Notes under the pieces: generated by a model
Databases searched by the model: none
Told to the model about the DNA's origin: nothing
The model's input: only the letters and a program-made list of their open reading frames with translations
Shown: piece after piece, positions 3,486 through 56,980 of the stretch
Layout: every line of letters starts with the position of its first letter
Position numbering within the stretch: the stretch's first letter is position 1
Assembly (NCBI GenBank): GCA_964618655.1
Contig: CAZUFG010000001.1
Coordinates: 1-58,896, forward strand
DNA length: 58,896 bases
Origin: an uncultured Candidatus Bathyarchaeia archaeon
GTDB taxonomy: Archaea; Thermoproteota; Bathyarchaeia; Bathyarchaeales; Bathyarchaeaceae
Direction: 5' to 3'
Made by a program: the position numbers and the translations under genes

Positions 3486-4988
3486 CTATGGTTTTGCTAC
3501 TGATACTCTGCAATGAGTGAGACTTCTTCGTCTCTTAGTCCAAGCCATTTTTGAGAAAGCTACGCAAATCAAGGTTGCGGCTAAGAATAGCACTAGAACA
3601 ATAATTTCTGGCATTTCTGGGACTACCCATGTACCGATAATGTAGACTGTTGGGGTGCTGAAGTTTAAACTCAAAGACAAGATTACGTGTGTAGCGTTCT
3701 CCTCAACTATCGGAGTTGTCGTTTGTCCGCAAATAATGACAAACCATTGCCCCGGTGAAGCGTAGAGTAGGTTCCTTGGAATGGTTATGTTGACAAAGCC
3801 ACTGCCTTCGCCTGTAACGTTGAACATTAGCAACCTGTTGGGTTGAACGAGTATCATCGGAACCGGAGTAATCGATCCGTTACTTACCGTTGTAACATAG
3901 AATGTTTGGTTCTCCCAAACGATCTCATGGACGAGCGTTTCGATGAGGAATTCGTAGTAGCCGCTCTCTACATAGTGTAGAAGCAAGTTAGTGTCAGGGT
4001 CAGCAAGTATCGTGTCAAACAGTTCTAGAGTACAGACGCTTGGCGGTCCTTTAGTAGCATTGAAGGTTATTGTGGCTAGTGTTCCGTTTCCCTCAGGGAA
4101 TGTTGTCCAATTGCCTTCACCCGAACCTTGAGGAATCAATAGGATGCCGAGCAAAATGTAGTCCTCATCGATGATCGGCCCAAAATAGAAGACTTCGCCG
4201 AACTGTTCCATGAAAGTGCCATTTAACACTTCCACAACCTCTAGGAAGTTTGTGTCGTAGCGTAACTTGAACTCTAAGCCGACAAGCTTCATACTAGTGA
4301 CTACGTCGTAAATGGTAATGTTGATGTTGAAGACTTCGCCTGAGCGTGTTGGCGCATATGTTTCAGGTTCCACTTTCATTAGTGCCGGAGGTAATGGAGG
4401 TACAATATATGAGTAGCTGCCATCTTCCACACTTGTCGGAAGCGGACCCGCCTCTGGATCGCCAACTATAACATCATATAGGTCAAGGAGACAAGACGCG
4501 GGAGCCTCCTGCACAATTTTCAGGGTTATTCTTGCCAAGGTTCCATTACCAGATTTGGGAACATACCCTTTTTCTATGGCTCTGGTTATGTTGTAGTATG
4601 TAACAGCGTACTCTGCATAGCCGCCATATATCGACTTTGCGAGGACCCAGAGGTTTCCGGCGTCGCTGTCAGGCGTCATGAAATGGCCTGTTGGAAGGTC
4701 AATGCTTATACCTTCTAGAATGGTGCTGTTCCAACTAAGTTTGAATTCCACACCTCCAACGTTTGCTGCGTCTCTGATTTTCACGTCAACGGTAAATGTG
4801 TCATCTACTGCTGTTGTGTTAGAATAGAATATGCTTTCAGGAGGATCAACATAAACTGTTTGTTCTTGGGCACGCACTGGAAAGATGATTACTCCACTTG
4901 CGACACTTAATAGTAATAAAGCAGTTAAGAAAAGCCACAGCAGTTTTCCCACTTTATTATTTGAAGATATGTTTTTCATTTTTATCAC
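3486..4988 (-). CDS. Membrane-anchored scaffoldin-like protein: signal sequence, two cohesin-like modules (class A then class B), a beta-rich module and a C-terminal PEF-CTERM-like anchor
   Basis: 500-aa ORF. Class A cohesin: VDVKIRDAANVGGVEFKLSWNSTILEGISIDLPTGHFMTPDSDAGNLWVL...KSGNGTLARITLKIV. Class B cohesin: KLVGLEFKLRYDTNFLEVVEVLNGTFMEQ...GNGTLATITFNA. The C-terminus is VVPEMPEIIVLVLFLAATLICVAF followed by KMAWTKRRR. There is no dockerin. Confidence 0.7.
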   Translation of the reverse strand: MIKMKNISSNNKVGKLLWLFLTALLLLSVASGVIIFPVRAQEQTVYVDPPESIFYSNTTAVDDTFTVDVKIRDAANVGGVEFKLSWNSTILEGISIDLPTGHFMTPDSDAGNLWVLAKSIYGGYAEYAVTYYNITRAIEKGYVPKSGNGTLARITLKIVQEAPASCLLDLYDVIVGDPEAGPLPTSVEDGSYSYIVPPLPPALMKVEPETYAPTRSGEVFNINITIYDVVTSMKLVGLEFKLRYDTNFLEVVEVLNGTFMEQFGEVFYFGPIIDEDYILLGILLIPQGSGEGNWTTFPEGNGTLATITFNATKGPPSVCTLELFDTILADPDTNLLLHYVESGYYEFLIETLVHEIVWENQTFYVTTVSNGSITPVPMILVQPNRLLMFNVTGEGSGFVNITIPRNLLYASPGQWFVIICGQTTTPIVEENATHVILSLSLNFSTPTVYIIGTWVVPEMPEIIVLVLFLAATLICVAFSKMAWTKRRRSLTHCRVSVAKP

Positions 4989-5135: not shown

Positions 5136-5786
5136 TTAACGTTTAGTGTTTCTTGGCAAAGTCTTCTTTGTTATGATGATAGCGACGAGTGTTGCAATCA
5201 TAAATACTGGCAATAGTAAGATTGCCGGAAACTCTGGTAATACTGTGACTTCACCATCAATTGCAACGTTGGGAAGAGGTTCTCCATCAATGTCGCCAAT
5301 TATGACATCATAAAGGTGTAGAGTTGTCTTACCCCATGTCTTGCTGACAAACGTGATTGTTGCTAAGATTCCATTACCAGATTTAGGCGCATAGCCTAAT
5401 TCAACAGCTCTGGTCGTGTTCATGAATGTGACACCATACGATGCGGTCCCTGCGTCATTGTCTACATTCAGCCAGAGAACCCAGAGGTTCCCGGTATCGC
5501 CGTCAGGCGTCATGAAATGGCCTGTTGGAAGCACCATCTCTGTAGCATTAAGAATTGTAGAGTTCCATCCGAGTACAAATTGTACGCCCTCAACACTGGC
5601 AGCGTATGCAATAGTTACATTCACTTTAAAGGTTGTGCCAATTTCTGCTTCTGGCACTACCTTTGAGGCTGGGTCTACTGTCACCGTCATTTGTTGCGCT
5701 CTCACAAGATTAATAGTGACGCTGACTACAAATAGAATGGCCAACATCATTAATAATGCTGTTTTTCCTTTCTTCAAATCATTCAC
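5136..5786 (-). CDS. Membrane-anchored single-cohesin protein with a PEF-CTERM-like sorting signal
   Basis: 216-aa ORF. Signal sequence: TALLMMLAILFVVSVTINLVRAQ. Class A cohesin: FKVNVTIAYAASVEGVQFVLGWNSTILNATEMVLPTGHFMTPDGDTGNLWVL...KSGNGILATITFV. The C-terminus is VLPEF-PAILLLPVFMIATLVAIIIT-KKTLPRNTKR, that is a PEF motif, a TM helix and a basic tail. Confidence 0.7.
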   Translation of the reverse strand: MNDLKKGKTALLMMLAILFVVSVTINLVRAQQMTVTVDPASKVVPEAEIGTTFKVNVTIAYAASVEGVQFVLGWNSTILNATEMVLPTGHFMTPDGDTGNLWVLWLNVDNDAGTASYGVTFMNTTRAVELGYAPKSGNGILATITFVSKTWGKTTLHLYDVIIGDIDGEPLPNVAIDGEVTVLPEFPAILLLPVFMIATLVAIIITKKTLPRNTKR

Positions 5787-11234: not shown

Positions 11235-13124
11235 CTACGCCCATGCAGCTAATATGGAGACTGTTGGTGGTTCTCCGGTAGATGTGTCTACGTATTCTGG
11301 GGTCCATGCGGCTCCGCAGAACCACGGTAGTTCGCTTAGGGCGTTGACGTGTATGGTTGCGGTGCCTGCACGTACGTGCTTATGCACATGTACTTTTACA
11401 CTGACCGTGTAGTTCGCGTAGTGACACCATTCTGCTCCGCCCACTTCTGTGCGGATGATCTTCATGCCGAATGGATATTGTAGTTCGTCCTTGAGCACTA
11501 TTGTGATGACTACTGGGTAGGTTAGTATTGCCTTGCTCTTGAAATTAACTGTGATGTTTATGTATTCGCAGTGTTTGTATTCCGCTTTGTCTGTGGTTAC
11601 GCTCACCCATCTTACGACCCAGTCGTAGTGGAACCAGAGCCAGTCTTTCACTGTTTGGGATGCTATGTCTACGCTAGCGACGACTGTGAAGACTCCGCAT
11701 AGTGCCCATCTATATTCTGGCCACGGTATTCTGAAGTCGACGAAGGCTGTACCGTTCTCGTCTGTCTCGGCTGATAGTATGATGACGAGTTCTCCTTGTG
11801 GGTCGCGTACCTCAAAGGTAACAACTTTCTGTTGTTCTGGCCATTCATTGTATGAAACGTTTGCCCATAGCCATATCTTCTTTTGTGGATACACCAAGTC
11901 AGCGGTCTCGTTTAGGCCTTGTCCACCGTACGGGTCTGGGTATGGTGTTGGTGGGTAGTCTACGTATCCGTCTGATCCCATGTATACGTCGATCATGCGT
12001 CCCAGCACTTTGGCCTTTATCTCATACCAGGCGTCACGTGCTGGAGTTGTGACAGGGATCGATTCACCTGTCTCGTCGCCGGCCATGTTGAAGGCATCGT
12101 CAAGGTCTAACCAGTCGCCTAAAACTACTGGGAACATGCCTTGCAGTATAGCCTTGAACTTGATCGTGGCTATTACCCCTTCGCCAGATGGGAATGGCGG
12201 ATACCATGTGGGCGGGAAGGTGGTGCTGTTTGGAAGAATCATTCCTCCGACCATCACGTAATCGTCTTCCACAATCTTTATGTAGAATACGCCTTCGTTT
12301 GGTGGTCCCGCGTAGGCTTCTAGGAATGTTCCGTTCTTCACTTCAAGGACTTCTAGTAGGGTTGTATTGTAGTGTAGCTTGAATTGGAAGCCGACAAGAT
12401 GCCAAGCTGCATCCACATCTTGGAGCTTTATGTCGATTTCGAATTCCTCGTTTAGAAGCTTGGCAACATACTTTGTTGGGTCTATCTGTCTCGTGTCCAC
12501 TTTGAAGTGTACCGGACCTGGTGGACCCCACTCATTCTTGTAGTAGCCATCATCTAGAGTTTGGGGCATTTTCACGCCGTCTGAGTCACCAAAAATGGTT
12601 TCCTCGGGTACAAAGGTTATGTTCGTGTCTACAAAGCCTTTCCATGGGGCTGGAGCGACGACCTCGAACAGGACTCTGAGGACGGTTCCACTTTCGTTTT
12701 TGGGCAAGTAGCCTTTTTCTTTTGCTCTGGTTAGGTTATAGACTGTGACAGCTACGGAGGCGTAGTCGTCACCAGCAGTTGGGGGTCCGATGAGGTTGAT
12801 GTTTCCTTCTTCGCCAGCCGGCGGCGCAAACCAGTAGCCTGCTGGAAGTGATGCGCTCTTTCCTTTTATGACCGAAGAGTTCCAAGTTATCTTGAGTTGG
12901 TAACCGCAGCATCCGTCGGTTGCGTTTCCTACGTCTTTTACTTTCACGTCAAGGTAGAATGTGGTGGTTGGAGCCCCGTTTACTAGAACTTTTGGATCAG
13001 GATCTATATACAGTGTTCCGCCTGAGGGTACATATGCGTGCGCTGGTGGAAGTACTGCTCCCATGCTTGCTAAGAGCATTGCCACTAGAACCATGATAGA
13101 TGCTTTTGTCTCTGTTCTATTCAT
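11235..13124 (-). CDS. Secreted scaffoldin-like protein: class A-like cohesin, class B cohesin and a C-terminal ~260-aa beta-rich region. No dockerin or anchor was recognised.
   Basis: 629-aa ORF. Signal peptide: ASIMVLVAMLLASMGAVLPPAHA. Cohesin 1: FYLDVKVKDVGNATDGCCGYQLKITWNSSVIKGKSASLPAGYWF...ESGTVLRVLFEVV. Cohesin 2: WHLVGFQFKLHYNTTLLEVLEVKNGTFLEA...GEGVIATIKFKA. Confidence 0.65.
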   Translation of the reverse strand: MNRTETKASIMVLVAMLLASMGAVLPPAHAYVPSGGTLYIDPDPKVLVNGAPTTTFYLDVKVKDVGNATDGCCGYQLKITWNSSVIKGKSASLPAGYWFAPPAGEEGNINLIGPPTAGDDYASVAVTVYNLTRAKEKGYLPKNESGTVLRVLFEVVAPAPWKGFVDTNITFVPEETIFGDSDGVKMPQTLDDGYYKNEWGPPGPVHFKVDTRQIDPTKYVAKLLNEEFEIDIKLQDVDAAWHLVGFQFKLHYNTTLLEVLEVKNGTFLEAYAGPPNEGVFYIKIVEDDYVMVGGMILPNSTTFPPTWYPPFPSGEGVIATIKFKAILQGMFPVVLGDWLDLDDAFNMAGDETGESIPVTTPARDAWYEIKAKVLGRMIDVYMGSDGYVDYPPTPYPDPYGGQGLNETADLVYPQKKIWLWANVSYNEWPEQQKVVTFEVRDPQGELVIILSAETDENGTAFVDFRIPWPEYRWALCGVFTVVASVDIASQTVKDWLWFHYDWVVRWVSVTTDKAEYKHCEYINITVNFKSKAILTYPVVITIVLKDELQYPFGMKIIRTEVGGAEWCHYANYTVSVKVHVHKHVRAGTATIHVNALSELPWFCGAAWTPEYVDTSTGEPPTVSILAAWA

Positions 13125-13353: not shown

Positions 13354-16236
13354 CTACTTCCAGCCGAATTTGCCTGCTAGTTTGATGGCGTCTAGGATGT
13401 TGACTGTGTTGTCGCTGTTTATGTCGGCTCTTGCGTTCCAGAGTCTGGTTCCTATCTTGGCTCCGAAGTTTGCTGCAAGCGCGATGGCGTCTAGGATGTT
13501 GACTTGGATGTCTAGGTTCAGGTCTTCAGGTAGGGTTACCCAGAAGTGGAAGGTGACGTTTATCCATTGACATACCCATGGGTTGGGTACTAGTTCATAG
13601 TGTGCTGGTGTGCCGCCAAGGAATTCGCTCAGAGTCCACGTGTATTCCCATATTTCTGGTGGACCCTTTACGTGGACGGCTACTTTTATGTCGTAGGTGC
13701 CTTTTGGCCATGATGGCATTGAGTAGTATGGATACGGCAGATCGTACAAGTCTATATGTTCTTTGTCTGCGTAGGCGACTTCGATTAGTGGAGGATCACA
13801 GACTGGAAAACCAACATACGGAGGCACTGGGTTGATTGTTTCTACGTGGTACCATCCGTCTTTCGTCGGTTCCTCGAAGCAATGCAATAAGAGTTTGTCG
13901 CATGGGTCAAGTTTTCCGTTGCAGTTGTCTTCCCAGTCCAAAACTAGGTAATGCACTGACGCGTTCGGGCAGCCACCGATCTGTTCAAATTCGGTGGTTA
14001 CTGGATCTGACATGTTGAGGTAAGTGATGTTGTGTAGGTACGCGTTTGTGCCTGGCAGGTGAATGTTTTCCGGATAGCCTGGTAGGAGGTGTTCTCCTGA
14101 CGCGTTGCTGAAGTAGACGTATTTGTCTATCCAGAGTATGCTTCCGTGGCATTGGTTCATGAACATGTTCTGGATCTGTAGGGTGAACTTGAGGTCAGCA
14201 GCCGCCGTGCCTGGTAGGAATACTTGTAGACCCTTGTATTTCTCTGGCGCATCTATTTGAGGGTCAACGTCCATTGGGCATGAGTGGAAGAACAGCGGGT
14301 TCCTCACGAGCGTCGCATGGTCAGCTGACGCGTAGTCAACGAGCTTGTAGGACCCTGTGCCTATGTAGTTGGGGTCTGGTCCCGGTATAGTGCGTGTTAT
14401 TAAGTCGGCGTCGCCTTTTTCAAGGATGTCCTTCCATATGTGCCTTGGTATGATCGGGACGGCTATTCCAACCCACATTTTCGCCCAGGTGGATCTGTAG
14501 TTGTACAGTATGACAGCGGTGCACGGGTCAACCTTGTAGACGCTCTTGGCTGTTGGGTACACGTAGGAGCTGAACCAAGGCTCTGGTAAGCCGCGTTTCG
14601 CCAGCGTGTATGAAACGTCCATGAACGAGAACACCACGTCGTCAGCTGTTAGATCATAACCGTCTGACCACTTGATTCCAGGTCTTAGCGTGACCTTGAC
14701 TCCTGTTTTAATCTTACCATCTGCGGGGTCAGTCCATTCGAACATGTCTACTTTCTTCGCCAGCCACGGTATGAAATCAGCTTGTGTGTTGGGGTCACGC
14801 ATCAGCAAAGTGTCGTAGATATTGCCTAGAATTTCCATGTCCCAGTACCAGCTTGCGTATATGATGTTTAGTTGTTCCACGTCTGAGACTTTCCATCCGT
14901 AGTACAGGGTCATGTTTTGGCCGTCGCCTATCTCGTAGCCGGCTGGGTGAGCGTTAAGTTTCGTCCAGTAGCTGTTCTCTCCGAAGCCAAGCTCGTTAAC
15001 TATGCCCTTCCACATGAGGCCTCTATACTTGTTTTGTCCGTCATCTGGCGCGGTCATTACGCCGCCGTTGCCTCCAGTGTAGGCCCTAGAAATGGCTTTT
15101 GGAGATGCTGTTGACATGCAAGGTATGGCGCCGACGGCGGTTGGTGCTGCCCACTCTTCTTGGGCCCGCAAGCAAGCGTCTCTCATTTCTGCCGTCGTTT
15201 TGTTCCCTGGAAACTTGATTATCTCTGCGTATGGTTGGTATGCCGTGATGTTGTAGTGGCCGTAGTTATTGGGTCTACCTGGGTGCCAGTACCCTGCAAT
15301 ATGGTATAGGTCGTATAGGTAGTCTGGTTCTGGACCCATGAAGATCCAGCCGCCAGTGTACATGTCGTAGTTCTTCTCGATCATAACCTTTGCACTGCAT
15401 GTGGCTCTGTCGACCAGGTGGAGGTCGACATCAATCTTTATTGGACCTGCCCCTAATATTACACTCAGCCTAGCTGCCATGTCGTTTCGCCACGCATGAT
15501 CAGACCTTCCATAGATTACTAATTTGAACTCTTCGCCGGCATCATATTTCCCATTTTTCGGATAAGTGGTGCCGTCTGCCTTAGGCTTGCCGTCCCAATA
15601 CCTCCAAGCATACTCGCTCGCATTGTATATGAAGCCGTCATCTGTCAGTATTTCGGCTGCCATTGTCACGTTAAACGGATGCGTTAAAGACTCTAACGCC
15701 CCGCCAGGCCTTATGTCAGGATGTACCCAATAAGCCATGTAAGGCAGGATCAGGGTGTACATCGGAATTGAAAGCCCTTCGGTGACGTTAGCTACGATAT
15801 CCGCTCGGTTCACACAGTGGGCTAATGCATGTCTGAAACTCGCCTCGCTGGTAGCGCTGGGAAACGCTGGGTTCGGACTGTCATCCATCAGCTTTGGATA
15901 CGGGTTGTTGTTAATATCCCAAAGGTAGTAGCCTCTTTCGCTACCCGGCGGTGGAAATGGAATAATTTTGAGAGTCGCGTTATTTGTGCCCCACCTGTCT
16001 ATGAAGTACCGGAGTAAACTCCAGTCTACTATGTCAAACTGGCCCTTCTCCATAGCTGTGAAACAAAGAACGTCAGTGGCATACATCCTAATGATAAGCC
16101 GATCCACTCTCGGTCCAAACCTCTCAAACTTGAGGTCTTCATTGCATTCAGGGTAAACCCATGCAAATGACGGTGCCGAGCTCAAAAGCAGCAAAGCTAT
16201 ACTAAGAAGTCCAACAAACGCTATCTTCGTATTCAT
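13354..16236 (-). CDS. ABC transporter solute-binding protein, family 5 (OppA/DppA-type peptide binding), with a C-terminal extra domain and a dockerin
   Basis: 960-aa ORF. The signal peptide MNTKIAFVGLLSIALLLLSSAPSFA has no lipobox. Family-5 hallmarks include LRPGIKWSDGYDLTADDVVFSF, and the size is typical. It is divergently adjacent to the OppB/C/D/F-type genes. The C-terminal 57 aa form a dockerin. Confidence 0.8.
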   Translation of the reverse strand: MNTKIAFVGLLSIALLLLSSAPSFAWVYPECNEDLKFERFGPRVDRLIIRMYATDVLCFTAMEKGQFDIVDWSLLRYFIDRWGTNNATLKIIPFPPPGSERGYYLWDINNNPYPKLMDDSPNPAFPSATSEASFRHALAHCVNRADIVANVTEGLSIPMYTLILPYMAYWVHPDIRPGGALESLTHPFNVTMAAEILTDDGFIYNASEYAWRYWDGKPKADGTTYPKNGKYDAGEEFKLVIYGRSDHAWRNDMAARLSVILGAGPIKIDVDLHLVDRATCSAKVMIEKNYDMYTGGWIFMGPEPDYLYDLYHIAGYWHPGRPNNYGHYNITAYQPYAEIIKFPGNKTTAEMRDACLRAQEEWAAPTAVGAIPCMSTASPKAISRAYTGGNGGVMTAPDDGQNKYRGLMWKGIVNELGFGENSYWTKLNAHPAGYEIGDGQNMTLYYGWKVSDVEQLNIIYASWYWDMEILGNIYDTLLMRDPNTQADFIPWLAKKVDMFEWTDPADGKIKTGVKVTLRPGIKWSDGYDLTADDVVFSFMDVSYTLAKRGLPEPWFSSYVYPTAKSVYKVDPCTAVILYNYRSTWAKMWVGIAVPIIPRHIWKDILEKGDADLITRTIPGPDPNYIGTGSYKLVDYASADHATLVRNPLFFHSCPMDVDPQIDAPEKYKGLQVFLPGTAAADLKFTLQIQNMFMNQCHGSILWIDKYVYFSNASGEHLLPGYPENIHLPGTNAYLHNITYLNMSDPVTTEFEQIGGCPNASVHYLVLDWEDNCNGKLDPCDKLLLHCFEEPTKDGWYHVETINPVPPYVGFPVCDPPLIEVAYADKEHIDLYDLPYPYYSMPSWPKGTYDIKVAVHVKGPPEIWEYTWTLSEFLGGTPAHYELVPNPWVCQWINVTFHFWVTLPEDLNLDIQVNILDAIALAANFGAKIGTRLWNARADINSDNTVNILDAIKLAGKFGWK
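13357..13527 (-). other. Dockerin module, divergent class A
   Basis: EDLNLDIQVNILDAIALAANFGAKIGTRLWNARADINSDNTVNILDAIKLAGKFGWK. The first loop keeps positions D1, N3, D5, N9 and D12. The second loop is canonical. Confidence 0.8.
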
Positions 16237-16352: not shown

Positions 16353-17438
16353 GTGAACAGTAAAATTCGAGGCTTCGAAATGGGCTTAAGGGCATACATA
16401 GCGAGGAGAATAGTATATTCGGTTGTCCTCATATTCTTCGTAATCACTCTCAACTTCATTATATTCATGTTATTACCAGGAGATCCCACAGAACTCTTCG
16501 TAAACCCCCGAGCGGTATGGGGTGCAGAGCAACGTCAACGTCAAGAGCAACTACTCAGAGACCTATGGGGCATTGGAGACCCTATTCATGTACGATACGC
16601 AAAATACGTGGTTAACATGTTTACTTGGCAGTTCGGGGAATCGATGACAGTTGCGCAGGGCGTTCCTGTTAGTACCAAGATACAAGAGTACTTGCCAAAT
16701 ACGATACTTTTAATGGGCGGATCAGTAATTTTAGCAATAGTAATAGGAGTTTTTCTAGGCGTTTTGGCGGCTTATAAAAGAGGAGGATTATTTGACACCG
16801 CAAACGTAACCATTTCCATGGCCTTCAACTCACTGCCCGTATTCTGGATGGGCATGATGTTCATCCTAATATTCTTCACCACACTAGGGTGGCTGCCAAT
16901 TGGTCACGTCACGCCAGGCGGTTGGATCACAAACCCACCCAAACCACTGGCGATATCGGGTTCCCTCCCGAACACAGTTTTCTCAGTCAACCTAGGAGAA
17001 ACCCTAAGGTATTTCAGTGGACGCATAACACATTTGATCCTACCCATGGCAACCCTCACCCTCTTTCAGTATGGAGCCTTTCTCCTTCTAACCAGAGCGA
17101 CTATGTTGGAAGCCCTTACAGAAGACTACATAGTCACTGCGCGGGCAAAGGGAGTCGCTGAAAGAAATGTCTTGTATAAACATGCACTAAAGAATGCTTC
17201 CCTGCCCTTGATAACTAGCGCAGCCATAAGTCTAGGGTTCATGTTTTCAGGGGCAATAATCACCGAAACAGTCTACACATGGGCAGGACTCGGAACACTT
17301 ATTTACAAGTCAATATCTTTTTTAGACTACAATATCCTACAAGCCCTCTTCTACGTTATAGGACTGTGTGTCATCATAGCAAATTTCATAGCAGATATCC
17401 TCTATGGAATAATTGACCCCAGAATCAAGTACGGGTGA
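16353..17438 (+). CDS. Peptide ABC transporter permease (OppB/DppB-type)
   Basis: 361-aa ORF with multiple TM segments. N-terminus: YIARRIVYSVVLIFFVITLNFIIFMLLPGDP. C-terminus: IADILYGIIDPRIKYG. Both are typical of the family. The track start is GTG 16353; ATG 16380 (MGLRAY...) is the more likely start. Confidence 0.85.
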   Translation: MNSKIRGFEMGLRAYIARRIVYSVVLIFFVITLNFIIFMLLPGDPTELFVNPRAVWGAEQRQRQEQLLRDLWGIGDPIHVRYAKYVVNMFTWQFGESMTVAQGVPVSTKIQEYLPNTILLMGGSVILAIVIGVFLGVLAAYKRGGLFDTANVTISMAFNSLPVFWMGMMFILIFFTTLGWLPIGHVTPGGWITNPPKPLAISGSLPNTVFSVNLGETLRYFSGRITHLILPMATLTLFQYGAFLLLTRATMLEALTEDYIVTARAKGVAERNVLYKHALKNASLPLITSAAISLGFMFSGAIITETVYTWAGLGTLIYKSISFLDYNILQALFYVIGLCVIIANFIADILYGIIDPRIKYG

Positions 17439-19108
17439 CAAAAATGTCAGCTTCCAAAGAGAAAGCCAAATTTGCAGCTATAAGACTCAAACGGTTCCTT
17501 AATATCTTCCTACGCAACACCAAGGGAATAGCCGGATTAGCCATTCTTATCATATTCCTAGTGATGGCCGCAGGTGCCCCCTTCCTAACACCCTACGATC
17601 CCATCTTATCAGAAGGCCTAGCTGGAGGTACCGCGGCACCAACTTGGCTTAGATACTTCCCACCTGCACTAGGCGGACAACCTGATTTAAGCGAGAACAT
17701 GTGGGTTGTGAACGACCCTGGCTTCAAAAATCCTCCAGCAATTAATTCTAGCATGATCGGTGAATGGGGCTACACAAAGTCGCCAAACATTACTATTCAA
17801 TTCGACCCAAACGAAGGAGCAAGCACGCCGGGATGCCTAGATATAGCGTTTGAACGAAACGAAGTTGGAAAACTTTACGGAGATCATTCAATCTACATCT
17901 ACAAAGATTACGACTTCCCTTACTCAGGTATGCCAAAAAAATTCCAGGGGCGAATAGCATTCTTCGTGAACGGCACGGGATATCTTAGGACGCAAAGATT
18001 GTGGAACGAAACCGGATCAAATTGGTACTATGCAAATATTACCCTCTTCTATGTCCCCGTTAGGATAAACGTGATTTTTGAGCAGGTAGACACTGGACAA
18101 AAATGGACGATATGGCCAGTTCCACAAATATTTTACGTGCCAGGATTCATGGATAATCCGGAGACAGTCTCTATCGAGGTTGATGGAACGGTTTATAGGT
18201 ATATCGGATACTGGTGGATCGTGAGTAGCGATCTAGACAGCTTTAACGCTCCAATCTGTCAAGGGTTGTTTAGGGGCGTAAATCCAGCCCAGGCAATGTT
18301 TACTAAAAAACCGGGTAAATATAGATACGGCGTAGAGATAACCTTTCAAGACGAAAAGGACAAAAACAAACCAGTTTACTCAACAATCTACATCGACGAC
18401 ATAGACTTCAAAATTCTAGGCACAAGCTGGGGACTCATGGGAACAGACACCTACGGACGAGACCTATTCACACAACTCCTATATGGAACAAGCATATCTC
18501 TCTACGTCGGCGTACTCTCAGCAGTACTCGCCATAGTGATAGGATTAATTGTAGGTCTTGTGGCAGGCTATCTCGGTGGAATAGTAGATGAAGTCCTGAT
18601 GAGATTCAACGACATGCTCCTCGTACTGCCAGGATTGCCACTTCTAATAGTATTGGTGGCAGTTCTAGGCACAAAAATTGAGAACCTCATTATATTACTA
18701 GGCTTACTTGGATGGAATGGCTTCGCCAGAGTCGTAAGATCACAGGTCCTCTCCATAAAAGAAAGACCCTTCATCGAAGCTGCCAAAGCCGTTGGAGCGG
18801 GAAAAGGATACATCATAATAAGACATATAGTGCCAAACGTGATGAGCTTGACATACGTTTCACTGGCAACTACAGTACCAGGCAACGTCATGGCAGAAGC
18901 AGCTCTAAGTTTTCTTGGCTTCTATGACCCCTACAGAATGTCCTGGGGAAGAATGCTCTATGACGTTCAGTTTAGAGCCGGAGCAATCCAAAATTGGTGG
19001 TGGGTGGTTCCACCAGGACTTTGTATAGCATTGCTCGCCATCTCTTTCGTCCTACTTGGATACGCCCTCGATGAGGTACTCAATCCAAAACTTAGAATGA
19101 GACGATGA
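17435..19108 (+). CDS. Peptide ABC transporter permease (OppC/DppC-type) with a ~270-aa extracytoplasmic insertion after TM1
   Basis: 557-aa ORF. The conserved core starts at LMGTDTYGRDLFTQLLYG. Residues ~60-330 between TM1 and the core have no counterpart in ordinary ~300-aa OppC proteins. The start overlaps the OppB stop (GTGA). An alternative start is ATG 17444. Confidence 0.8.
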   Translation: MTKMSASKEKAKFAAIRLKRFLNIFLRNTKGIAGLAILIIFLVMAAGAPFLTPYDPILSEGLAGGTAAPTWLRYFPPALGGQPDLSENMWVVNDPGFKNPPAINSSMIGEWGYTKSPNITIQFDPNEGASTPGCLDIAFERNEVGKLYGDHSIYIYKDYDFPYSGMPKKFQGRIAFFVNGTGYLRTQRLWNETGSNWYYANITLFYVPVRINVIFEQVDTGQKWTIWPVPQIFYVPGFMDNPETVSIEVDGTVYRYIGYWWIVSSDLDSFNAPICQGLFRGVNPAQAMFTKKPGKYRYGVEITFQDEKDKNKPVYSTIYIDDIDFKILGTSWGLMGTDTYGRDLFTQLLYGTSISLYVGVLSAVLAIVIGLIVGLVAGYLGGIVDEVLMRFNDMLLVLPGLPLLIVLVAVLGTKIENLIILLGLLGWNGFARVVRSQVLSIKERPFIEAAKAVGAGKGYIIIRHIVPNVMSLTYVSLATTVPGNVMAEAALSFLGFYDPYRMSWGRMLYDVQFRAGAIQNWWWVVPPGLCIALLAISFVLLGYALDEVLNPKLRMRR

Positions 19109-19127
19109 TCTCTACGCACTAATCTAT

Positions 19128-19541
19128 TCAACGTACATGTTCAGACGAATCAACGATATTGGAAACAGTCTCATCTACATAAGCCCAAAATTCTCTCTCT
19201 AATTTTTCGTAGGCTTCTCTTGACTTCAAATCTCGAAGAACAAAAACGCCTGCCCCCATGAGTGTTGCGATAGGAGCCAACAATCTGAATGCAAGCGAAG
19301 GCTGGGCAGACGCAAATTCCACTACAAATTCATCCGGATTCCCAAAAATTTTTACACGTATACTTTCACGCTTACCGTTAGAACGAATCAATACTCCTAA
19401 AACATTGTAGCCATCCGCCAATTTCTCTTTTAAGGTTTTAAAACCCTTATTTAAAAAGAAACGTTCAACTTGATCACTTAATAAATCGAGATTTATGTTC
19501 TTCCCCGTCCACTTTGTTTGCATTTGGGACCCCCATTTCAT
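19128..19541 (-). CDS. Hypothetical protein on the opposite strand, between the permease and ATPase genes
   Basis: 137-aa ORF with no motif I recognise. It has one hydrophobic segment (LAFRLLAPIATLMGAGVFVL). Confidence 0.4.
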   Translation of the reverse strand: MKWGSQMQTKWTGKNINLDLLSDQVERFFLNKGFKTLKEKLADGYNVLGVLIRSNGKRESIRVKIFGNPDEFVVEFASAQPSLAFRLLAPIATLMGAGVFVLRDLKSREAYEKLEREFWAYVDETVSNIVDSSEHVR

Positions 19542-19678
19542 GAAAAGATAATTGAAGTATCAAAAAAATATTACGGTGAACAAACTCACAAAAACTTATA
19601 TCTATCACTCCCTATCTCACAATAATAAAATCTGCAGGCTGTGTAAATGACTCAAAACGATGTAGGAAGATCCATCAA

Positions 19679-20644
19679 ATGACCCTCCTAGACGTTCAAA
19701 ATTTAAGAACCTACTTCACTATACTTAGAGGAGCCGTCAAAGCTGTAGACGGAGTTTCTTTCCAAGTAGAGACAGGAGAAGCAGTAGGACTGGCAGGAGA
19801 ATCTGGATGTGGCAAAACTACTTGCGCGCTATCAATTCTTAGAATCTTGCCATGGAACGGCAAAATAATGGAAGGAAAGATACTCTTCGAGGGCGAAGAC
19901 CTTGTTAAACTTGACGACAGTGAAATAAGAGAAAGAATCAGGTGGAAAGGAATTTCGATAGTGTTTCAAGGAGCCATGAACGCAATGAACCCTGTTTACA
20001 AAGTTGGAGACCAAATAGTCGAATCTATCACACTCCATGAGCCGGATGTTGATAAAAGAGAGGCACTAGAAAGAACAGAAAAACTATTGGAGATGGTGGG
20101 AGTTGATCCTACTAGAGCAAACAACTATCCCCACGAGTTCAGTGGAGGAATGAAACAACGCGCCATGATAGCCATGGCTTTATCATGCAGCCCAAAACTT
20201 CTAATCGCAGATGAACCCGGCACAGCTCTCGACGTAATAGTAGCAGCACAAGTATTAAAACTTCTAAAAGAGTTAAAACGCAGACTAAACTTGGGAATGA
20301 TACTAATAACCCATGACCTATCGATCATAGCTGAAACATGCGAGAGAGCCGCTATCATGTACGCTGGAAAAATTGCAGAGTATGGAGACGTCGTAACAAT
20401 TTTTAAAGAACCATTACATCCATATACGCAACGCCTTATAGGGGCTTTCCCAAGCATCAAAGCTGCTAGGATCCGTATGGTCTCCATTCCAGGAGCCCCA
20501 CCAGATCTATTAAACCCGCCGAGTGGATGTAGATTTCATGAAAGGTGTCTATATGCCATGGATATATGCAGAAAAGAAGATCCCGCATTTCTGGACGTAG
20601 GAAAAGGGCATTATGTATCGTGTCATTTAGTTCAAAAGAAATAA
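19679..20644 (+). CDS. Peptide ABC transporter ATPase (OppD/DppD-type)
   Basis: Walker A GESGCGKTT, signature FSGGMKQRAMIA, Walker B LLIADEPGTALD and H-loop ITHDL. The C-terminal oligopeptide-type extension carries four Cys (PPSGCRFHERCLYAMDICRK...VSCHL). Confidence 0.9.
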   Translation: MTLLDVQNLRTYFTILRGAVKAVDGVSFQVETGEAVGLAGESGCGKTTCALSILRILPWNGKIMEGKILFEGEDLVKLDDSEIRERIRWKGISIVFQGAMNAMNPVYKVGDQIVESITLHEPDVDKREALERTEKLLEMVGVDPTRANNYPHEFSGGMKQRAMIAMALSCSPKLLIADEPGTALDVIVAAQVLKLLKELKRRLNLGMILITHDLSIIAETCERAAIMYAGKIAEYGDVVTIFKEPLHPYTQRLIGAFPSIKAARIRMVSIPGAPPDLLNPPSGCRFHERCLYAMDICRKEDPAFLDVGKGHYVSCHLVQKK

Positions 20645-20658
20645 GGAGAGAAGTTTTC

Positions 20659-21642
20659 ATGAAAGAAACTATAATAAAAGTTGAAGATTTAAAAAAGTGG
20701 TTTCCCGTAAGATTAGGGTTTTTTGAAACCATCTTTTCAAGAAAACAATTGTTCGTAAGAGCCGTAGACCAAATCAGCTTCGACATAAAAAAAGGAGAAA
20801 TATTTGGTCTAGCAGGCGAAAGCGGCAGTGGAAAAACAACTACTGGAAGACTGTTACTTAGGTTAATCGAACCTACAAGTGGAACGATATACCTCCATGA
20901 TAAAGACATTACAAAAATTCCTGAAAAACAGTTTAAACGAATACGCAGCAAAATTCAGATAATATTCCAAGACCCGTACGAATCCCTAAACCCACGAATG
21001 ACTATCAGTGATATAGTATCAGAACCCTTGAGGGTTCAAGGATATCGCGGCGATGTAGAAAGTAGAGTAAGCAAAGTCCTCGAAGATGTGGAATTAATTC
21101 CTCCAGAAGAATTTCTTCTCAGATATCCACACGAGCTCAGCGGGGGGCAAAGGCAACGAGTCGCTGTAGCTAGAGCACTCATACTTGACCCTGAATTCAT
21201 AGTTGCAGACGAACCAGTATCTATGCTTGACGCTTCGATTAGAGCAGAGGTCTTAAACCTAATGATAGATCTAAGGGAAAAATATGACGTATCAATTTTG
21301 TATATAACTCACGATTTAGCTTTAGCCAGACACACATGCGACCGACTAGCAGTAATGTACCTAGGTAAGATAATGGAGAGAGGAGATGTAGAAGACATCG
21401 TGCAAGAACCCCTACATCCCTATACGAAAGCCTTAATGGTTGCAGTTCCGGTGCCCGATCCAACGTCAGCACGCATCGAGGTGGTAATAAAAGGAGAAAT
21501 TCCCAGCCCCATTAATCCGCCTTCCGGATGCAGATTCCACACACGTTGCCCACAATACATTGGAGATATATGCCGCACTAAGGAGCCCGCATTGATCGAA
21601 GTTGGAAAACGCCGATCTGTAGCGTGCCACTTATACTCCTGA
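20659..21642 (+). CDS. Peptide ABC transporter ATPase (OppF/DppF-type)
   Basis: Walker A GESGSGKTT, signature LSGGQRQRVAVA, Walker B FIVADEPVSMLD. C-terminus: PPSGCRFHTRCPQYIGDICR...VACHL. I place the start at ATG 20659 (MKETIIKVEDL), preceded by AGGAGAG, rather than at the track start 20545, which overlaps OppD. Confidence 0.9.
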   Translation: MKETIIKVEDLKKWFPVRLGFFETIFSRKQLFVRAVDQISFDIKKGEIFGLAGESGSGKTTTGRLLLRLIEPTSGTIYLHDKDITKIPEKQFKRIRSKIQIIFQDPYESLNPRMTISDIVSEPLRVQGYRGDVESRVSKVLEDVELIPPEEFLLRYPHELSGGQRQRVAVARALILDPEFIVADEPVSMLDASIRAEVLNLMIDLREKYDVSILYITHDLALARHTCDRLAVMYLGKIMERGDVEDIVQEPLHPYTKALMVAVPVPDPTSARIEVVIKGEIPSPINPPSGCRFHTRCPQYIGDICRTKEPALIEVGKRRSVACHLYS

Positions 21643-21680
21643 TACGTTGCAAAATCCTTATAAAGTGGACAAAAGAACTT

Positions 21681-22418: not shown

Positions 22419-22471
22419 AGCCTTAAATATCGTCAAATTTCATAGCATACAAAACTCATGAGGAATGAGGG

Positions 22472-25358: not shown

Positions 25359-28300
25359 CTAGTACTTATTTCCGAAGTTGTTTGCGATTAGGATGAAGTC
25401 AAGAATGTTTATTTTGTTGTCTCTGTTGATATCGGCTAGTGAATTCCATTTTGGATGGCTTGGGTAAGAGCCGAAAGCAGATGAGGCTAAAATACAGTCT
25501 AATATGTTAACGGTTTTGTCATTGTTCACATCGCCTACCATTTTGAGTTTAACATAACCATCAATGAAGACATTATTATCTTGATCAGTTTCTCCAGGAA
25601 CAACGCTGGCTTCAGCCCACATTGTGTAATTGACGTAAAGTTGCAGACCTGTAGTGTTCCAACAGAATGTTAAAGTCATCTCTTCGCCAGTATGTAGATC
25701 AAAAACGGTTTTTGTTTCTATAGGTGTGCTCTCGTAGTAGGCGGTGACGGTGAAGGTTTCAGTTGAGTTCCCGACGTTTTTAGCCGTAACATTGATAGAA
25801 ATCATCCAGCCTGCGTAAGCTTCTGTTACGGATGGAACAACGCTAATTACCGCCACATCACGCATTAACGGAATAGTCATTGCAACCTCCGCTAAACCGT
25901 CAAGGGAACTGTGGGAAATGATCTCCCCCTCTGGATCCGCGAGTATCGTTTCACAGAGGTCTAATATGGAGTTACCTAATTCTCTAGCTTTGAATTGGAC
26001 TGTCACCAATATCCCGCTTCCAGTTTTCCCCGTTTCATTGCCTACATAATTGAACAACGAGAATGCAAAGTGTATACAACCATGTGTAGCATTGTATGCG
26101 TTGTTAGTCTCATTTATCCACACGTATATGTTGCGCGGATCAATTTCAGGCGTCAGAAAGTGTCCTGCTGGAAGCGTAACGCCACGTCCTTCTAAGATGT
26201 CGTTTTTATAAAACAGCTTGAACTCATATCCATAGAGATCTGAGACATCAGTGACTGTTATGTTTATCGTGAAGACTTCATCACGTATTACTATGCTTTG
26301 TATAGGGTCTATAGAAATGTATGTTCCTGTTACGGTGAACACCTGAACACTCATCATCACAACATTGTTTTTTGTGATAGCCTCGTCGTGAACTGGAGGT
26401 GCGTAAGCTGTCACGTTATATATGCCTTCAACTGTTGGGGTCCATAGATAGTTTAGCACATAGGAGGAATTGACTAACAATTCGGGAATCATTGCAGAGG
26501 CAACAATGCTACCATTAATTAGTAGATACAATTCTAAACCGGTTTCGTTACTTAGCCCATCGTTATAAACCGTTGCTTTAAGAATTGTCGGGGTGTTAGG
26601 CTTAAGACGTGGAGGCGCCCTCAATGAAACCACGAGCTCGTGTTCGTATCGAACGGGAGGAGGACGATATAGGATAACCCATTCGATCATATTTGTTAGA
26701 AGCTTCTCGGCTCCTATTCTGTCTTCATAGTAAAGGTGCCAGTCTGGGTCTTGTTGGGTTATTACGATCCGTCCACTGCCATATGTGGTTGCTAGCGTAA
26801 TCGGCGCTGAGATTTCTATACCCCATGCCAATGCCTTCCAAACATGGTGGACAAAGAATCCGTGGTAGGACATGCCCCAATTGCTAAGTTGAGCGTCGGT
26901 CAAACTGAACATAACAGGGTGGGTCGGGTCGAGAATCTGAACATTGTTTCCAGCAAATCCGTACGAGTTAACCCATAACGGGAGCCAATCCCACCTATTG
27001 CTCTCATAGAACTCCGAGAGGGCAACAATTCCGTTGCCAGCAGCCACCCAATCTGCTATCTCTGATGCACGGGCAAGCAACGCATCAACCACAGCGTCTC
27101 CTGGGCTCCATCCAACGAACAAAACGTTATACTGATACAGGTCAACTGTGGCAAATTCAGCTGGCGTGACTAAAGTATAGTTGTATCCCAACATGTCGAG
27201 GGCACCAGTATCCTCAGGCCAAGGCGTATCGACCACTAAGAGTCTTGGCGGATAGCGAACATGCACCATCTCGCTTACAACATTATTTGCTGTGTAGGTT
27301 TCGTTAAGTACCGAAGGTGCATATGCTGTAACATTGTATGTTCCCCCTATTGTTGGAGTCCACAGACAACTGAATGTAAAAGACTGCCCAGTTAACAAAT
27401 CTGGAACTATCACAGAGTTAAGGACGGTGCTATTAATCATCAACTGCAACTCCACGTTGGTTTCGTTGTTTAGTCCTTGGTTGTGAACAGTCGCATTAAG
27501 CATAACTGAAGTATCAGGCTCCAAGAATGCTGGAGCCTCTAGAGTCAAAGCAAGGTCATGCTGATATCGAATGTATGGTGTAGCCCATTCGATCATGTTT
27601 TTTAAAAGCTTCCCGGCTCCAAGTACATCGTTGTAGTAAAAGTGAAAGTCTGGGTCTTGATCAGTTATCACAATTCGTCCACTGCCGTACGTTGCCGCCA
27701 ACGTGATGGAGTAGCCAGCTTCTATTCCCTGAGCCAACGCCGTCCAATCTGCATGATAGCTGTAGAAGTAGCCATGATATGAGAACGACCAATAGCTAAG
27801 TTCAGCGTCGGTCAGATTGAACAGCACAGGGTGGGTTGGATCGAGAATGTGAACATTGTCTCCAGTATATCCGTACGAGTTAACCCATAACGGGAGCCAT
27901 GCCCACCTATTGCTCTCGTAGAACTCTGACAGGGCAACAATTCCGTTGCCAGCAGCCACCCAACCTGCGATTTCCGATGCGCGGGCAACCAACGCATTGA
28001 CTACATCATCTCCTGGCGTCCAACCAACGAATAGGATGTTAAACCTGTAAAGGTCGACTGTAGCGAATTCAGTTGGTGAGACTAATGTGTATTCGTATCC
28101 TAATCTATCAAGAACACCTGTGTCCTCAGGCACCGGAGTATCGATAACTAAGAGTTTTGGTGCACATCGGACACGCACCATCTGGGTTGCCACATTATTC
28201 TCCATGACCTCTTCACCAGGCACTGGAGGTGCATAGGCTGTCACGTTGTATGTTCCTTCAACAGTTGGGACCCAAAGATAGCTTAGCCTATAAGACTCTC

Positions 28301-36878: not shown

Positions 36879-36924
36879 TTTTAAATCCTCTTGAACATTC
36901 AAACAACTATTACGTATGCAGTAG

Positions 36925-49736: not shown

Positions 49737-49801
49737 CATGTTAAATATATTAATTGAACTTGTATCCCTCTACCTATACGAAGCGTTTGGAGGCAACATC
49801 G

Positions 49802-56867: not shown

Positions 56868-56980
56868 CTCAGAAAACACACGAGTAGCAGTAGAAGCCCC
56901 ATGGCTCAGCCTTTCTTCCATTTGCCTTATGGAAAATCATTTTAGATTAACTAGCGTCTTAAGTGTGAGGCGGCTTAGGC

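What the first reader, a model, noticed from the sequence alone, without database searches (positions are those of the whole stretch)
13354..16236. ABC-transporter solute-binding protein tethered by a dockerin instead of a lipid or TM anchor
The OppA-type (family 5) binding protein has a cleavable-looking signal peptide with no lipobox and no TM anchor. It carries a ~220-aa extra domain and a C-terminal dockerin (13357-13527). In this dockerin both calcium loops keep the D1-N3-D5-N9-D12 pattern.

Archaeal and Gram-positive SBPs normally stay at the membrane through lipid or TM anchors. Here retention would depend on docking to a cohesin, plausibly the PEF-CTERM-anchored class A cohesin proteins at 3486 and 5136.

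That would place the peptide receptor in the same complex as the S8 protease and next to its OppBCDF permease.
Basis: partly seen in the sequence, partly recalled or inferred. Interest (0 to 1): 0.75.

Follow-up and report, generated by a model that had tools for sequence, protein, structure and literature searches.

The report
Permuted, dockerin-tailed transporter binding protein

Summary
ORF 13354-16236 (-) encodes a 960-aa secreted protein with an SBP_bac_5 domain (113.5 bits), no lipobox, no TM segment beyond the signal peptide, a beta-rich extra region (aa ~655-900) and a C-terminal dockerin with two intact D1-N3-D5-N9-D12 loops.

Residues 42-311 match Pfam positions 146-360 and residues 489-650 match positions 3-141. 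The AF2 model is confident (pLDDT 90).

All 208 relatives in which both halves were detected share this order. About 80-90% of relatives end in a dockerin and 7 carry a C-terminal TM anchor at the same place. Every named relative is from Bathyarchaeia.

Most paralogs are orphans. A conserved core locus, found here and in four other loci, links OppBCDF (OppC with a CBM-like ectodomain), the SBP-dockerin and a secreted two-cohesin protein (11235-13124).

Best reading: a receptor for the adjacent importer, held at the surface by cohesin-dockerin binding. The ligand (peptide or oligosaccharide), the partner cohesin and the route to the membrane are unresolved.

Dockerin-bearing OppA/NikA SBPs were already noted in ANME archaea, so that part is not new. 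The permutation appears to be new.

The parts
16162..16236 (-). Signal peptide, aa 1-25 (MNTKIAFVGLLSIALLLLSSAPSFA | WVYP). Sec type with an AxA-like site and no lipobox.
   Evidence: Sequence. It is the only hydrophobic stretch above TM level. A-W-x-Y-P after the h-region is conserved across the family.
15304..16113 (-). First SBP segment, aa 42-311. It corresponds to the C-terminal part of a canonical family-5 SBP (Pfam positions 146-360; domain Ib plus domain III).
   Evidence: 60.4 bits when scored alone, cutoff 32.4. Profile positions 105-151 and 221-369 align to residues 236-283 and 328-471 of solved SBPs.
14773..15303 (-). Connecting region, aa 312-488. It holds the canonical C-terminal end, a short and highly conserved junction (W409, N414, G419, N428) and the canonical N-terminal start.
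   Evidence: No Pfam hit. It is conserved in 120 of 120 homologs, with nearly invariant columns. pLDDT is above 90. aa 440 aligns to residue 14 of 1vr5.
14287..14772 (-). Second SBP segment, aa 489-650. It corresponds to the N-terminal part of a canonical SBP (Pfam positions 3-141; mainly domain II).
   Evidence: 59 bits when scored alone. aa 440-709 align to residues 14-262 of T. maritima 1vr5/4pft. Profile positions 478-618 align to residues 58-188 of 6i3g.
13537..14274 (-). Beta-rich, Cys-rich extra region, aa ~655-900. It lies between the SBP and the dockerin and probably acts as a spacer or stalk. It varies across the family.
   Evidence: No Pfam hit. The AF2 model shows strands throughout, with lower pLDDT at aa 730-830. 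Only 19 of 120 homologs match it by sequence.
13357..13527 (-). C-terminal dockerin, aa 904-960, with two Ca loops each followed by a helix.
   Evidence: Pfam PF00404 at 23.0 bits (whole protein) and 28.9 bits (alone) against a cutoff of 22.9. Island-dockerin HMM 1.1e-20. Model helices at 914-921 and 947-955. PDB dockerin 2y3n matches at 2e-6.
16353..17438 (+). OppB-type permease, divergently transcribed 116 bp from the SBP gene.
   Evidence: BPD_transp_1 at 1.2e-39. Orthologs lie next to permuted SBPs in L007, L012, L014, L017, L027 and L028.
17435..19108 (+). OppC-type permease, 557 aa. It has a ~270-aa extracytoplasmic beta-jelly-roll insert (aa 57-330; nt 17603-18424).
   Evidence: OppC_N plus BPD_transp_1. 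The NCBIfam core starts at aa ~320-334. The insert model has pLDDT 91. Foldseek finds CBM22/61/4/27-like folds and no cohesin.
19679..21642 (+). OppD (19679-20644) and OppF ATPases. The OppF ORF runs from 20545; its true start is probably the ATG near 20659.
   Evidence: ABC_tran plus oligo_HPY in both.
11235..13124 (-). Secreted protein with two cohesin-like modules and a conserved C-terminal beta domain, directly downstream of the SBP gene. It is the syntenic candidate partner for the SBP dockerin.
   Evidence: Cohesin at 6.1e-7. Homologs follow the permease-linked SBP, directly or within about 3 kb, in L012, L017, L027 and L028. The family has no TM anchor.
5136..5786 (-). Single-cohesin protein with a C-terminal PEF motif, hydrophobic helix and basic tail. 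It is a candidate membrane-proximal anchor.
   Evidence: 44% identical to the Pfam-validated cohesin of the 7976 protein, E 4e-45. The tail scores below cutoff for Loki-CTERM, PEFG-CTERM and PEF-CTERM.
3486..4988 (-). Two-cohesin protein with a C-terminal hydrophobic helix and a basic tail. It is a candidate anchoring scaffoldin.
   Evidence: Cohesin at 7.8e-15 in 2 stretches. Tail sequence. No sorting-domain HMM hit.
25359..31754 (-). 2131-aa S8 protease with 6 CARDB modules, a cohesin and a dockerin. It is a probable fellow component of the same cohesin-dockerin network.
   Evidence: Peptidase_S8 at 2.5e-58, CARDB x6 and Dockerin_1. Its C-terminal cohesin is 31% identical to the 7976 cohesin, E 2e-23.

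Best explanation
The gene encodes a secreted, circularly permuted OppA/DppA-type (cluster C, SBP_bac_5) solute-binding protein.

The segment that normally opens the protein (domain Ia plus domain II) has been moved behind the segment that normally closes it (domains Ib, III and Ic). The chain therefore leaves the binding protein at the end of domain II. It continues into a beta-rich spacer and a calcium-type dockerin. Both hinge crossings lie inside the first segment, so the open/close binding motion should be kept (inferred).

The protein most likely serves as the substrate receptor of the adjacent OppBCDF-type importer. It would be kept at the cell surface by non-covalent dockerin-cohesin binding rather than by a lipid or TM anchor. 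That places it in the same cohesin-dockerin network as the S8 protease, the PKD proteins and the beta-helix proteins of the island.

Other genomes carry one such permease-linked copy plus several orphan paralogs. These presumably feed the same permease with other ligands.

Shown: the architecture, the permutation, its family-wide conservation, the interchange of dockerin and TM anchor at the C-terminus, and the conserved synteny.

Inferred: cohesin binding, the identity of the partner, delivery to the permease, and the ligand class.
For: - Each SBP half passes the Pfam cutoff alone, and the two halves cover complementary, non-overlapping profile ranges: 146-360 first, then 3-141.
- The same reversed order appears against solved SBPs, by single sequence and by family profile.
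- The AF2 model has pLDDT 90 and pTM 0.87. Its best Foldseek matches are all cluster C SBPs, but with only ~330-400 aligned columns and TMt 0.33-0.49. That is expected when a sequential aligner meets a permutation.
- The permuted order is seen in 117 of 120 close homologs and in 91 of 91 informative representatives.
- 1333 representatives at 50% identity score E<=1e-30.
- A C-terminal dockerin is present in 110 of 120 homologs and 106 of 133 representatives. A C-terminal TM anchor is present in 1 and 6 of them.
- OppBCDF is adjacent here and in L007, L012, L014, L017, L027 and L028.
- L027 (permease-linked copy) and L001 (orphan tandem pair) lie on the same 826-kb contig.
- The window holds 7 dockerins and many cohesins.
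- All 20 genome hits are Bathyarchaeia MAGs.
Against: - About three quarters of the loci examined have no Opp permease within 10 kb.
- No binding, localisation or transport data exist.
- The dockerin barely passes the Pfam cutoff in the context of the whole protein.
- The syntenic cohesin protein has no recognisable membrane anchor. The putative anchored cohesins fail the sorting-signal models. The path from dockerin to membrane is therefore not closed.
- I could not get model coordinates, so no permutation-aware superposition or docking geometry was done.
- The ligand class is undetermined.
Confidence: 0.6

Rival explanations
1. The permuted SBP modules are not transport receptors. They act as ligand-capturing or targeting modules of an extracellular multi-protein complex, analogous to the carbohydrate-binding modules of cellulosomes. 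They would hold polymers or oligomers near the docked hydrolases.
For: - Most paralogs are orphans, next to dockerin-bearing peptidases or beta-helix proteins rather than permeases.
- Family members are fused to Peptidase_M14, Peptidase_C14, cohesin, CARDB and Laminin_G_3 modules.
- There are 7 or more paralogs in one MAG.
Against: - A conserved core locus couples one copy tightly to OppBCDF in at least 7 loci.
- Several SBPs sharing one Opp/Dpp permease is well known in bacteria (established knowledge; for example PMC12728205, listed).
- A minority of family members carry the classical archaeal C-terminal TM anchor of transport SBPs.
Confidence: 0.2
2. The dockerin does not tether the SBP to the cell. 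It binds the secreted, unanchored two-cohesin protein encoded next door. This would form a soluble or S-layer-associated shuttle complex. Alternatively, the SBP is what recruits other proteins.
For: - The two-cohesin protein is the most consistently syntenic cohesin gene, seen in the window, L012, L017, L027 and L028.
- None of 31 family members has a TM anchor.
Against: - TM-anchored family members show that the C-terminus is the place where membrane retention is normally provided.
- Membrane-tailed cohesin proteins exist in the island.
- The conserved C-terminal domain of the two-cohesin protein could itself bind the envelope or the OppC ectodomain. This was not tested.
Confidence: 0.15
3. 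The apparent permutation or fusion is an artefact: a mis-assembly, a frameshift-joined pair of genes, or an HMM alignment quirk.
For: None found. Tandem SBP paralogs do occur (L001), so a chimeric read-through was worth excluding.
Against: - The same 960-aa protein occurs at 99% identity on an independent contig.
- More than 200 relatives from many samples are collinear over the whole length.
- The junction region is among the most conserved parts.
- The AF2 model is confident through the junction.
Confidence: 0.02

Closest known systems
Canonical cluster C (family 5) ABC solute-binding proteins: OppA, DppA, NikA, T. maritima TM1223 (1VR5/4PFT), Vibrio chitin-oligosaccharide binding protein, T. 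kodakarensis OppA (7FI3)
   Same: Same Pfam family, and these are the best structural neighbours. The gene lies next to OppBCDF-type permease and ATPase genes carrying oligo_HPY domains.
   Different: The order of the segments is circularly permuted, with the cut at Pfam position ~141/146. From my knowledge of DppA numbering this is the boundary between domain II and domain Ib. A beta-rich region and a dockerin are appended. There is no lipid or TM anchor.
Dockerin-bearing NikA/OppA-type and TroA-type SBPs of ANME archaea (Chadwick et al. [quoted passage not shown]
   Same: They are archaeal ABC-transporter SBPs that carry a dockerin, in genomes with scaffoldin-like multi-cohesin proteins. They are known from genome annotation only.
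   Different: The lineage differs (Bathyarchaeia versus ANME). No permutation is reported there, and I could not test whether the ANME proteins are permuted. Here the architecture defines a whole large family and has a conserved locus with a permease and a two-cohesin protein.
Bacterial cellulosome (type I dockerin-cohesin, anchoring and adaptor scaffoldins)
   Same: A duplicated Ca-binding dockerin at the C-terminus of cargo proteins. Cohesin-only, cohesin-plus-dockerin and membrane-tailed cohesin proteins are encoded in one island.
   Different: The cargo here includes a transporter receptor, an S8 protease, PKD proteins and beta-helix proteins, not glycoside hydrolases. There are no SLH or sortase anchors. 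Binding specificities are untested.
Archaeal Opp-class SBPs with a C-terminal TM anchor, and the Sulfolobus bindosome (own knowledge: Albers et al.; Zolghadr et al. 2007)
   Same: The problem is the same: keeping an SBP at the surface of a cell without an outer membrane. Seven permuted family members use the classical C-terminal TM anchor.
   Different: This protein uses a dockerin. Its signal peptide is Sec/AxA-like, not the class III pilin-like type of bindosome SBPs (by eye).
Engineered circular permutants of periplasmic binding proteins (biosensor work; for example PMC6335823 and PMC9815098, listed)
   Same: They show that the PBP fold tolerates new termini.
   Different: Those are laboratory constructs of other SBP classes (maltose, ribose). 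This is a natural, ancient, family-wide permutation of the cluster C fold.

Membership tests
SBP_bac_5 / cluster C ABC solute-binding proteins | Score above the Pfam PF00496 gathering threshold | tested here: met
   113.5 bits against 32.4. Each half alone scores 60.4 and 59 bits.
SBP_bac_5 / cluster C ABC solute-binding proteins | Canonical N-to-C order of segments (Ia-II-Ib-III-Ic) | tested here: not met
   aa 42-311 match profile 146-360 and aa 489-650 match profile 3-141. The order is also reversed against the PDB chains 6i3g, 5isu and 1vr5. The protein is a permuted variant, not a canonical member.
SBP_bac_5 / cluster C ABC solute-binding proteins | Bilobed fold resembling solved cluster C SBPs | tested here: met
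   AF2 pLDDT 90. The top 50 Foldseek PDB hits are all family-5 SBPs at about E 1e-10 to 1e-12. Coverage is partial (TMt 0.33-0.49), as expected for a permutation. No permutation-aware superposition was possible.
SBP_bac_5 / cluster C ABC solute-binding proteins | Genetic linkage to Opp/Dpp-type permease and ATPase genes | tested here: met
   OppB, OppC, OppD and OppF lie at 16353-21642. The same linkage is seen in 6 other loci. Most paralogs, however, are orphans.
SBP_bac_5 / cluster C ABC solute-binding proteins | Binds a ligand and delivers it to the permease | not testable with these tools
   Needs biochemistry.
Type I dockerin (PF00404) | Score above the gathering threshold | tested here: met
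   23.0 against 22.9 in the whole protein, which is marginal. 28.9 when scored alone. Independent island-dockerin HMM 1.1e-20.
Type I dockerin (PF00404) | Two 12-residue Ca-binding loops, each followed by a helix | tested here: met
   DLNLDIQVNILD and DINSDNTVNILD. Model helices at 914-921 and 947-955.
Type I dockerin (PF00404) | Ca-dependent binding to a cognate cohesin | not testable with these tools
   Cohesins are abundant in the island, but no binding test was possible.
Lipid- or TM-anchored archaeal/Gram-positive SBPs | Lipobox cysteine after the signal peptide, or a C-terminal TM helix | tested here: not met
   No lipobox pattern. The highest hydropathy outside the signal peptide region (aa 1-29) is 1.36. 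Seven relatives do have a C-terminal TM anchor.
PEF-CTERM / archaeosortase-sorted proteins (claimed for the cohesin proteins at 3486 and 5136) | Match to a C-terminal sorting-domain model | tested here: not met
   For the 5136 tail: Loki-CTERM 16.2 against 19.9, PEFG-CTERM 14.7 against 25, PEF-CTERM 7.3 against 23. The 3486 tail has no hit. Both do have a hydrophobic helix and a basic tail by eye.
Sulfolobus-type bindosome SBPs | Class III (pilin-like) signal peptide | tested here: not met
   By eye only. The signal has a long h-region and an SFA|W site, with no [KR][GA]-hydrophobic cleavage motif near the N-terminus.

The most novel reading that the evidence does not exclude
The permease-linked locus may encode a transporter-attached docking platform.

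The secreted two-cohesin protein (11235-13124) would be held by its conserved C-terminal domain on the CBM-like ectodomain of OppC, or on the envelope. It would present cohesins that capture any of the genome's many dockerin-tailed, permuted SBP paralogs. The same cohesin-dockerin network would hold the S8 protease and the beta-helix enzymes.

The result would be a cohesin-dockerin 'bindosome' that physically couples extracellular depolymerisation to uptake. The circular permutation would have arisen to place the tether on the side of the SBP that faces away from the permease.
Probability: 0.15. Interest if true: 0.85.

Novelty: new variant of a known kind. Interest (0 to 1): 0.62.

Why it matters
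SBPs are among the best-studied protein folds. Their tethering by a lipid, a TM helix or fusion to the permease shapes how ABC importers work in cells without an outer membrane.

A large natural family combines a circular permutation of the cluster C fold with a clip-on dockerin tether. It offers three things:
1. A natural experiment on how much topology the Venus-flytrap mechanism tolerates.
2. A possible exchangeable-receptor design, in which many paralogs share one permease.
3. A concrete and testable link between extracellular hydrolases and uptake in Bathyarchaeia. These are abundant sediment archaea, and their way of feeding on detrital polymers is still argued from genomes alone.

The finding also matters for annotation. 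Pfam flagged the dockerin in only about a quarter of the family, and domain-order-blind annotation hides the permutation.

Tried and rejected
1. Idea: the ~270-aa OppC ectodomain is a cohesin that would dock the SBP directly. Rejected. The confident AF2 model matches CBM22/61/4/11/27-type jelly rolls. No cohesin appears among the top 50 PDB hits.

2. PEF-CTERM status of the 3486 and 5136 tails: below every sorting-domain cutoff.

3. Anchor on the syntenic two-cohesin protein: none in 31 homologs.

4. The search for related loci with the 93-sequence alignment failed because no stretch was conserved enough. It was repeated with 16 sequences.

I replaced it with my own HMM searches.

6. Literature:
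- No paper was found on a natural circular permutation of an OppA-type SBP.
- No paper was found on Bathyarchaeia dockerin SBPs.
- Peer et al. 2009 is not held.
- The R. albus paper was irrelevant.

7. The bacterial promoter and terminator scan found nothing above shuffles, and it does not suit an archaeon anyway.

8. No tRNA genes are in the window.

9. Ligand class: the closest solved relatives are mixed (mannoside, chitin oligosaccharide, peptide, nickel), so no call was made.

10. Model coordinates are not exposed. I therefore could not do a permutation-aware superposition or analyse where the new termini lie relative to the permease-docking face.
Full report
**1. What is at the coordinates**

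The minus-strand ORF 13354-16236 encodes 960 aa. It is not an assembly accident. A 99% identical protein lies on an independent 73-kb contig, and four relatives at 64-67% identity share its layout.

Pfam reports SBP_bac_5 (E 1.6e-32, 113.5 bits, cutoff 32.4). It reports Dockerin_1 at aa 904-953 (23.0 bits, cutoff 22.9). The dockerin call is marginal in the whole protein. Three further results make it solid:
- The isolated module scores 28.9 bits.
- An HMM that I built only from the five other Pfam-validated dockerins of the island hits it at 1.1e-20.
- A solved cellulosomal dockerin (2y3n) matches at 2e-6.

Both loops, DLNLDIQVNILD and DINSDNTVNILD, show D1-N3-D5-N9-D12. In the model each is followed by a helix.

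The N-terminus is a Sec-type signal (…SSAPSFA|WVYP). There is no lipobox pattern. No 19-residue window outside aa 1-29 exceeds Kyte-Doolittle 1.44.

**2.

Pfam matched SBP_bac_5 in two stretches, and the first lies in the C-terminal part of the profile. I scored the pieces separately. Residues 42-311 match profile positions 146-360 (60.4 bits). Residues 489-650 match positions 3-141 (59 bits). Each piece passes the cutoff alone, and the two ranges are complementary and do not overlap.

Against solved structures the same reversal appears:
- aa 440-709 align to residues 14-262 of T. maritima TM1223, while aa 132-202 align weakly to residues 282-350.
- With a family profile, positions 478-618 align to chain residues 58-188, positions 105-151 to 236-283, and positions 221-369 to 328-471.

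An AF2 model built on 93 homologs is confident (pLDDT 90, pTM 0.87), including through the junction. Its Foldseek neighbours are exclusively cluster C SBPs: YntA, NikA/NikZ, OppA, TM1223 and the chitin-oligosaccharide binding protein. Only ~330-400 columns align, with TMt 0.33-0.49. That is what a sequential aligner gives on a permuted fold.

From my knowledge of DppA domain boundaries, the cut at profile position ~141/146 coincides with the junction between domain II and domain Ib. The chain order becomes Ib-III-Ic, junction, Ia-II. Both hinge crossings remain in the first segment, so the open/close mechanism is plausibly intact. This last point is an inference.

**3. It is a family trait, not a one-off**

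- Among 120 homologs, 117 show the C-half before the N-half. The other three have the N-half at the same late position.
- An exhaustive HMMER search of 1.84 billion representatives gave 1333 proteins at E<=1e-30. Most of the top 150 are collinear over profile positions ~6-836.
- All 91 new representatives in which both halves are detectable are permuted.
- The junction between the old C-terminus and the old N-terminus contains some of the most conserved residues: W409, N414, G419 and N428.
- All 20 hits in species-representative genomes are Bathyarchaeia/Bathyarchaeota MAGs, and one MAG holds at least 7 paralogs.

**4. The dockerin sits where an anchor would be**

A C-terminal dockerin is present in 110 of 120 homologs and in 106 of 133 further representatives. 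Pfam had flagged only about a quarter of them.

Seven members (P0117 plus six) instead end in a hydrophobic helix with a basic tail. Some of these have a Pro/Thr-rich linker. This is the classical C-terminal anchor of archaeal Opp-class SBPs (the comparison with the classical anchor is from my own knowledge).

The interchange of dockerin and TM anchor at the same position is the best available evidence that the dockerin has a retention role.

**5. Genomic context**

In the window the SBP gene is divergent, 116 bp from OppB. The operon continues with OppC, OppD and OppF.

Most relatives, however, are orphans. Even the 64% identical P0002 has no permease within 10 kb. Other copies lie beside dockerin-bearing M14 peptidases or beta-helix proteins.

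Approaching from the permease side resolves this. Loci with the long OppC show the order OppF, OppD, then on the other strand OppB, OppC, a permuted SBP-dockerin and a homolog of the window's 11235-13124 two-cohesin protein. Further cohesin and dockerin genes follow (L027 and L028; also L012 and L017). L027 lies on the same 826-kb contig as the orphan tandem pair of L001.

The pattern is one permease-linked copy plus several orphan paralogs. This is familiar from bacterial Opp/Dpp systems with multiple SBPs.

**6. The partner and the path to the membrane remain open**

- The syntenic two-cohesin protein family has a signal peptide and a conserved C-terminal domain, but no TM anchor in any of 31 members.
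Their tails fall below every sorting-domain cutoff.
- I tested whether the ~270-aa OppC ectodomain is a cohesin. It is not. It is a CBM-like jelly roll.
- The island's seven dockerins are closely similar. The SBP's is the most divergent.

**7. Ligand**

The 'peptide receptor' label is not established. The closest solved relatives include mannoside-, chitin-oligosaccharide-, peptide- and nickel-binding proteins.

The context is mixed. The S8 protease, M14 peptidases and peptidase fusions point to peptides. Beta-helix/pectinesterase-like neighbours and the CBM-like OppC domain point to glycans.

**8. Comparison with what is known**

Dockerin-bearing NikA/OppA- and TroA-type SBPs have been reported, from annotation, as common dockerin proteins of ANME archaea (PMC9012536). 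The tethering idea is therefore not new in kind.

I found no report of a natural circular permutation of an OppA-type SBP, and none of this Bathyarchaeia family. The library does not cover subscription journals.

I therefore rate it a new variant of a known kind. It is a real, large, conserved family that combines a permuted cluster C fold, a dockerin tether and a dedicated locus with a long-OppC permease and a two-cohesin protein.

**9. Verdict**

- Architecture and permutation: near certain.
- Receptor of the adjacent importer, retained by cohesin-dockerin binding: about 0.6.
- Non-transport binding module: about 0.2.
- Soluble or unanchored complex: about 0.15.

Noticed in passing
window 17603-18424 (OppC aa 57-330): OppC carries a ~270-aa extracytoplasmic insert between TM1 and the permease core. 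The AF2 model (pLDDT 91) is a beta jelly roll, closest to carbohydrate-binding modules (CBM22, 61, 4, 11 and 27; Foldseek E 4e-5 to 1e-3). Long OppC proteins of 540-875 aa make up most of the 120 best hits listed, with Bathyarchaeia and Jordarchaeaceae among the few named sources.
   Followed up: yes
window 11235-13124 (-); L012 15380-17608; L017 13356-15749; L027 13441-15300; L028 14449-17028: A secreted protein with two cohesins and a C-terminal domain is conserved downstream of the permease-linked SBP, directly or within about 3 kb. Its family (31 hits, ~600-630 aa) has no membrane anchor and usually ends in a conserved ...ILAEWA-type motif. How it is held at the cell is unknown.
   Followed up: partly
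window 25359-31754 (-): A 2131-aa S8 protease has six CARDB modules, a C-terminal cohesin and a dockerin. Its middle contains near-identical long repeats (...LLV(I/V)DTP.PEDTG.LD.LGY.YTLV.P.EFATVDLY...), each preceded by a CARDB. The function of the repeated module was not examined.
   Followed up: partly
window 31945-34501 (-): Two beta-helix ORFs overlap by 14 nt: 33146-34501, and 31945-33159 which also has a cohesin and a dockerin. They could be one gene split by a frameshift or two genes. More NosD-like beta-helix ORFs lie at 35949-36902 and 37542-38321. Beta-helix or pectinesterase-like genes also neighbour SBP paralogs in L001, L025 and L029.
   Followed up: no
proteins P0022, P0005, P0014, P0019, P0070, P0104, P0098, P0007: Some family members are fused to other extracellular modules: Peptidase_M14, Peptidase_C14, cohesin, CARDB, Laminin_G_3, and a region that one source annotates as BamB-like (P0007). 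The permuted SBP is therefore also used as a building block, and even as an adaptor scaffoldin.
   Followed up: no
proteins P0117, P0321, P0330, P0355, P0358, P0360, P0363: These permuted SBPs carry a C-terminal TM helix and a basic tail instead of a dockerin. They are among the more divergent members, which may hint at the ancestral state.
   Followed up: partly
window 21624-23656 (+), 39847-41607 (-); L027, L028: The Yip1/DUF6114 membrane protein next to OppF and the ATP-dependent DNA ligase are also syntenic with the Opp locus in L027 and L028. The wider neighbourhood is therefore conserved across Bathyarchaeia genomes. A small ORF lies near the Opp genes in all three: 19128-19541 (-) here, between OppC and OppD, and ORFs of 125-162 aa between OppD and OppB in L027 and L028.
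   Followed up: no
window 48108-50911 (+) and 52878-58871 (-): A second ABC importer is present: a fused double BPD_transp_1 permease of 542 aa plus an ATPase with TOBE_2. No adjacent SBP ORF was noticed. A Rad50/Mre11/HerA-type cluster is also present.
   Followed up: no
window 5136-5786 and 3486-4988 (-): The C-terminal tails look like sorting signals: LPEFPAILLL...KK in one, and PEMPEII plus a helix and RRR in the other. They score below cutoff for the Loki-CTERM, PEFG-CTERM and PEF-CTERM models. They may represent an undescribed Bathyarchaeia variant of such signals. No archaeosortase gene turned up among the window ORFs that were scanned.
   Followed up: partly
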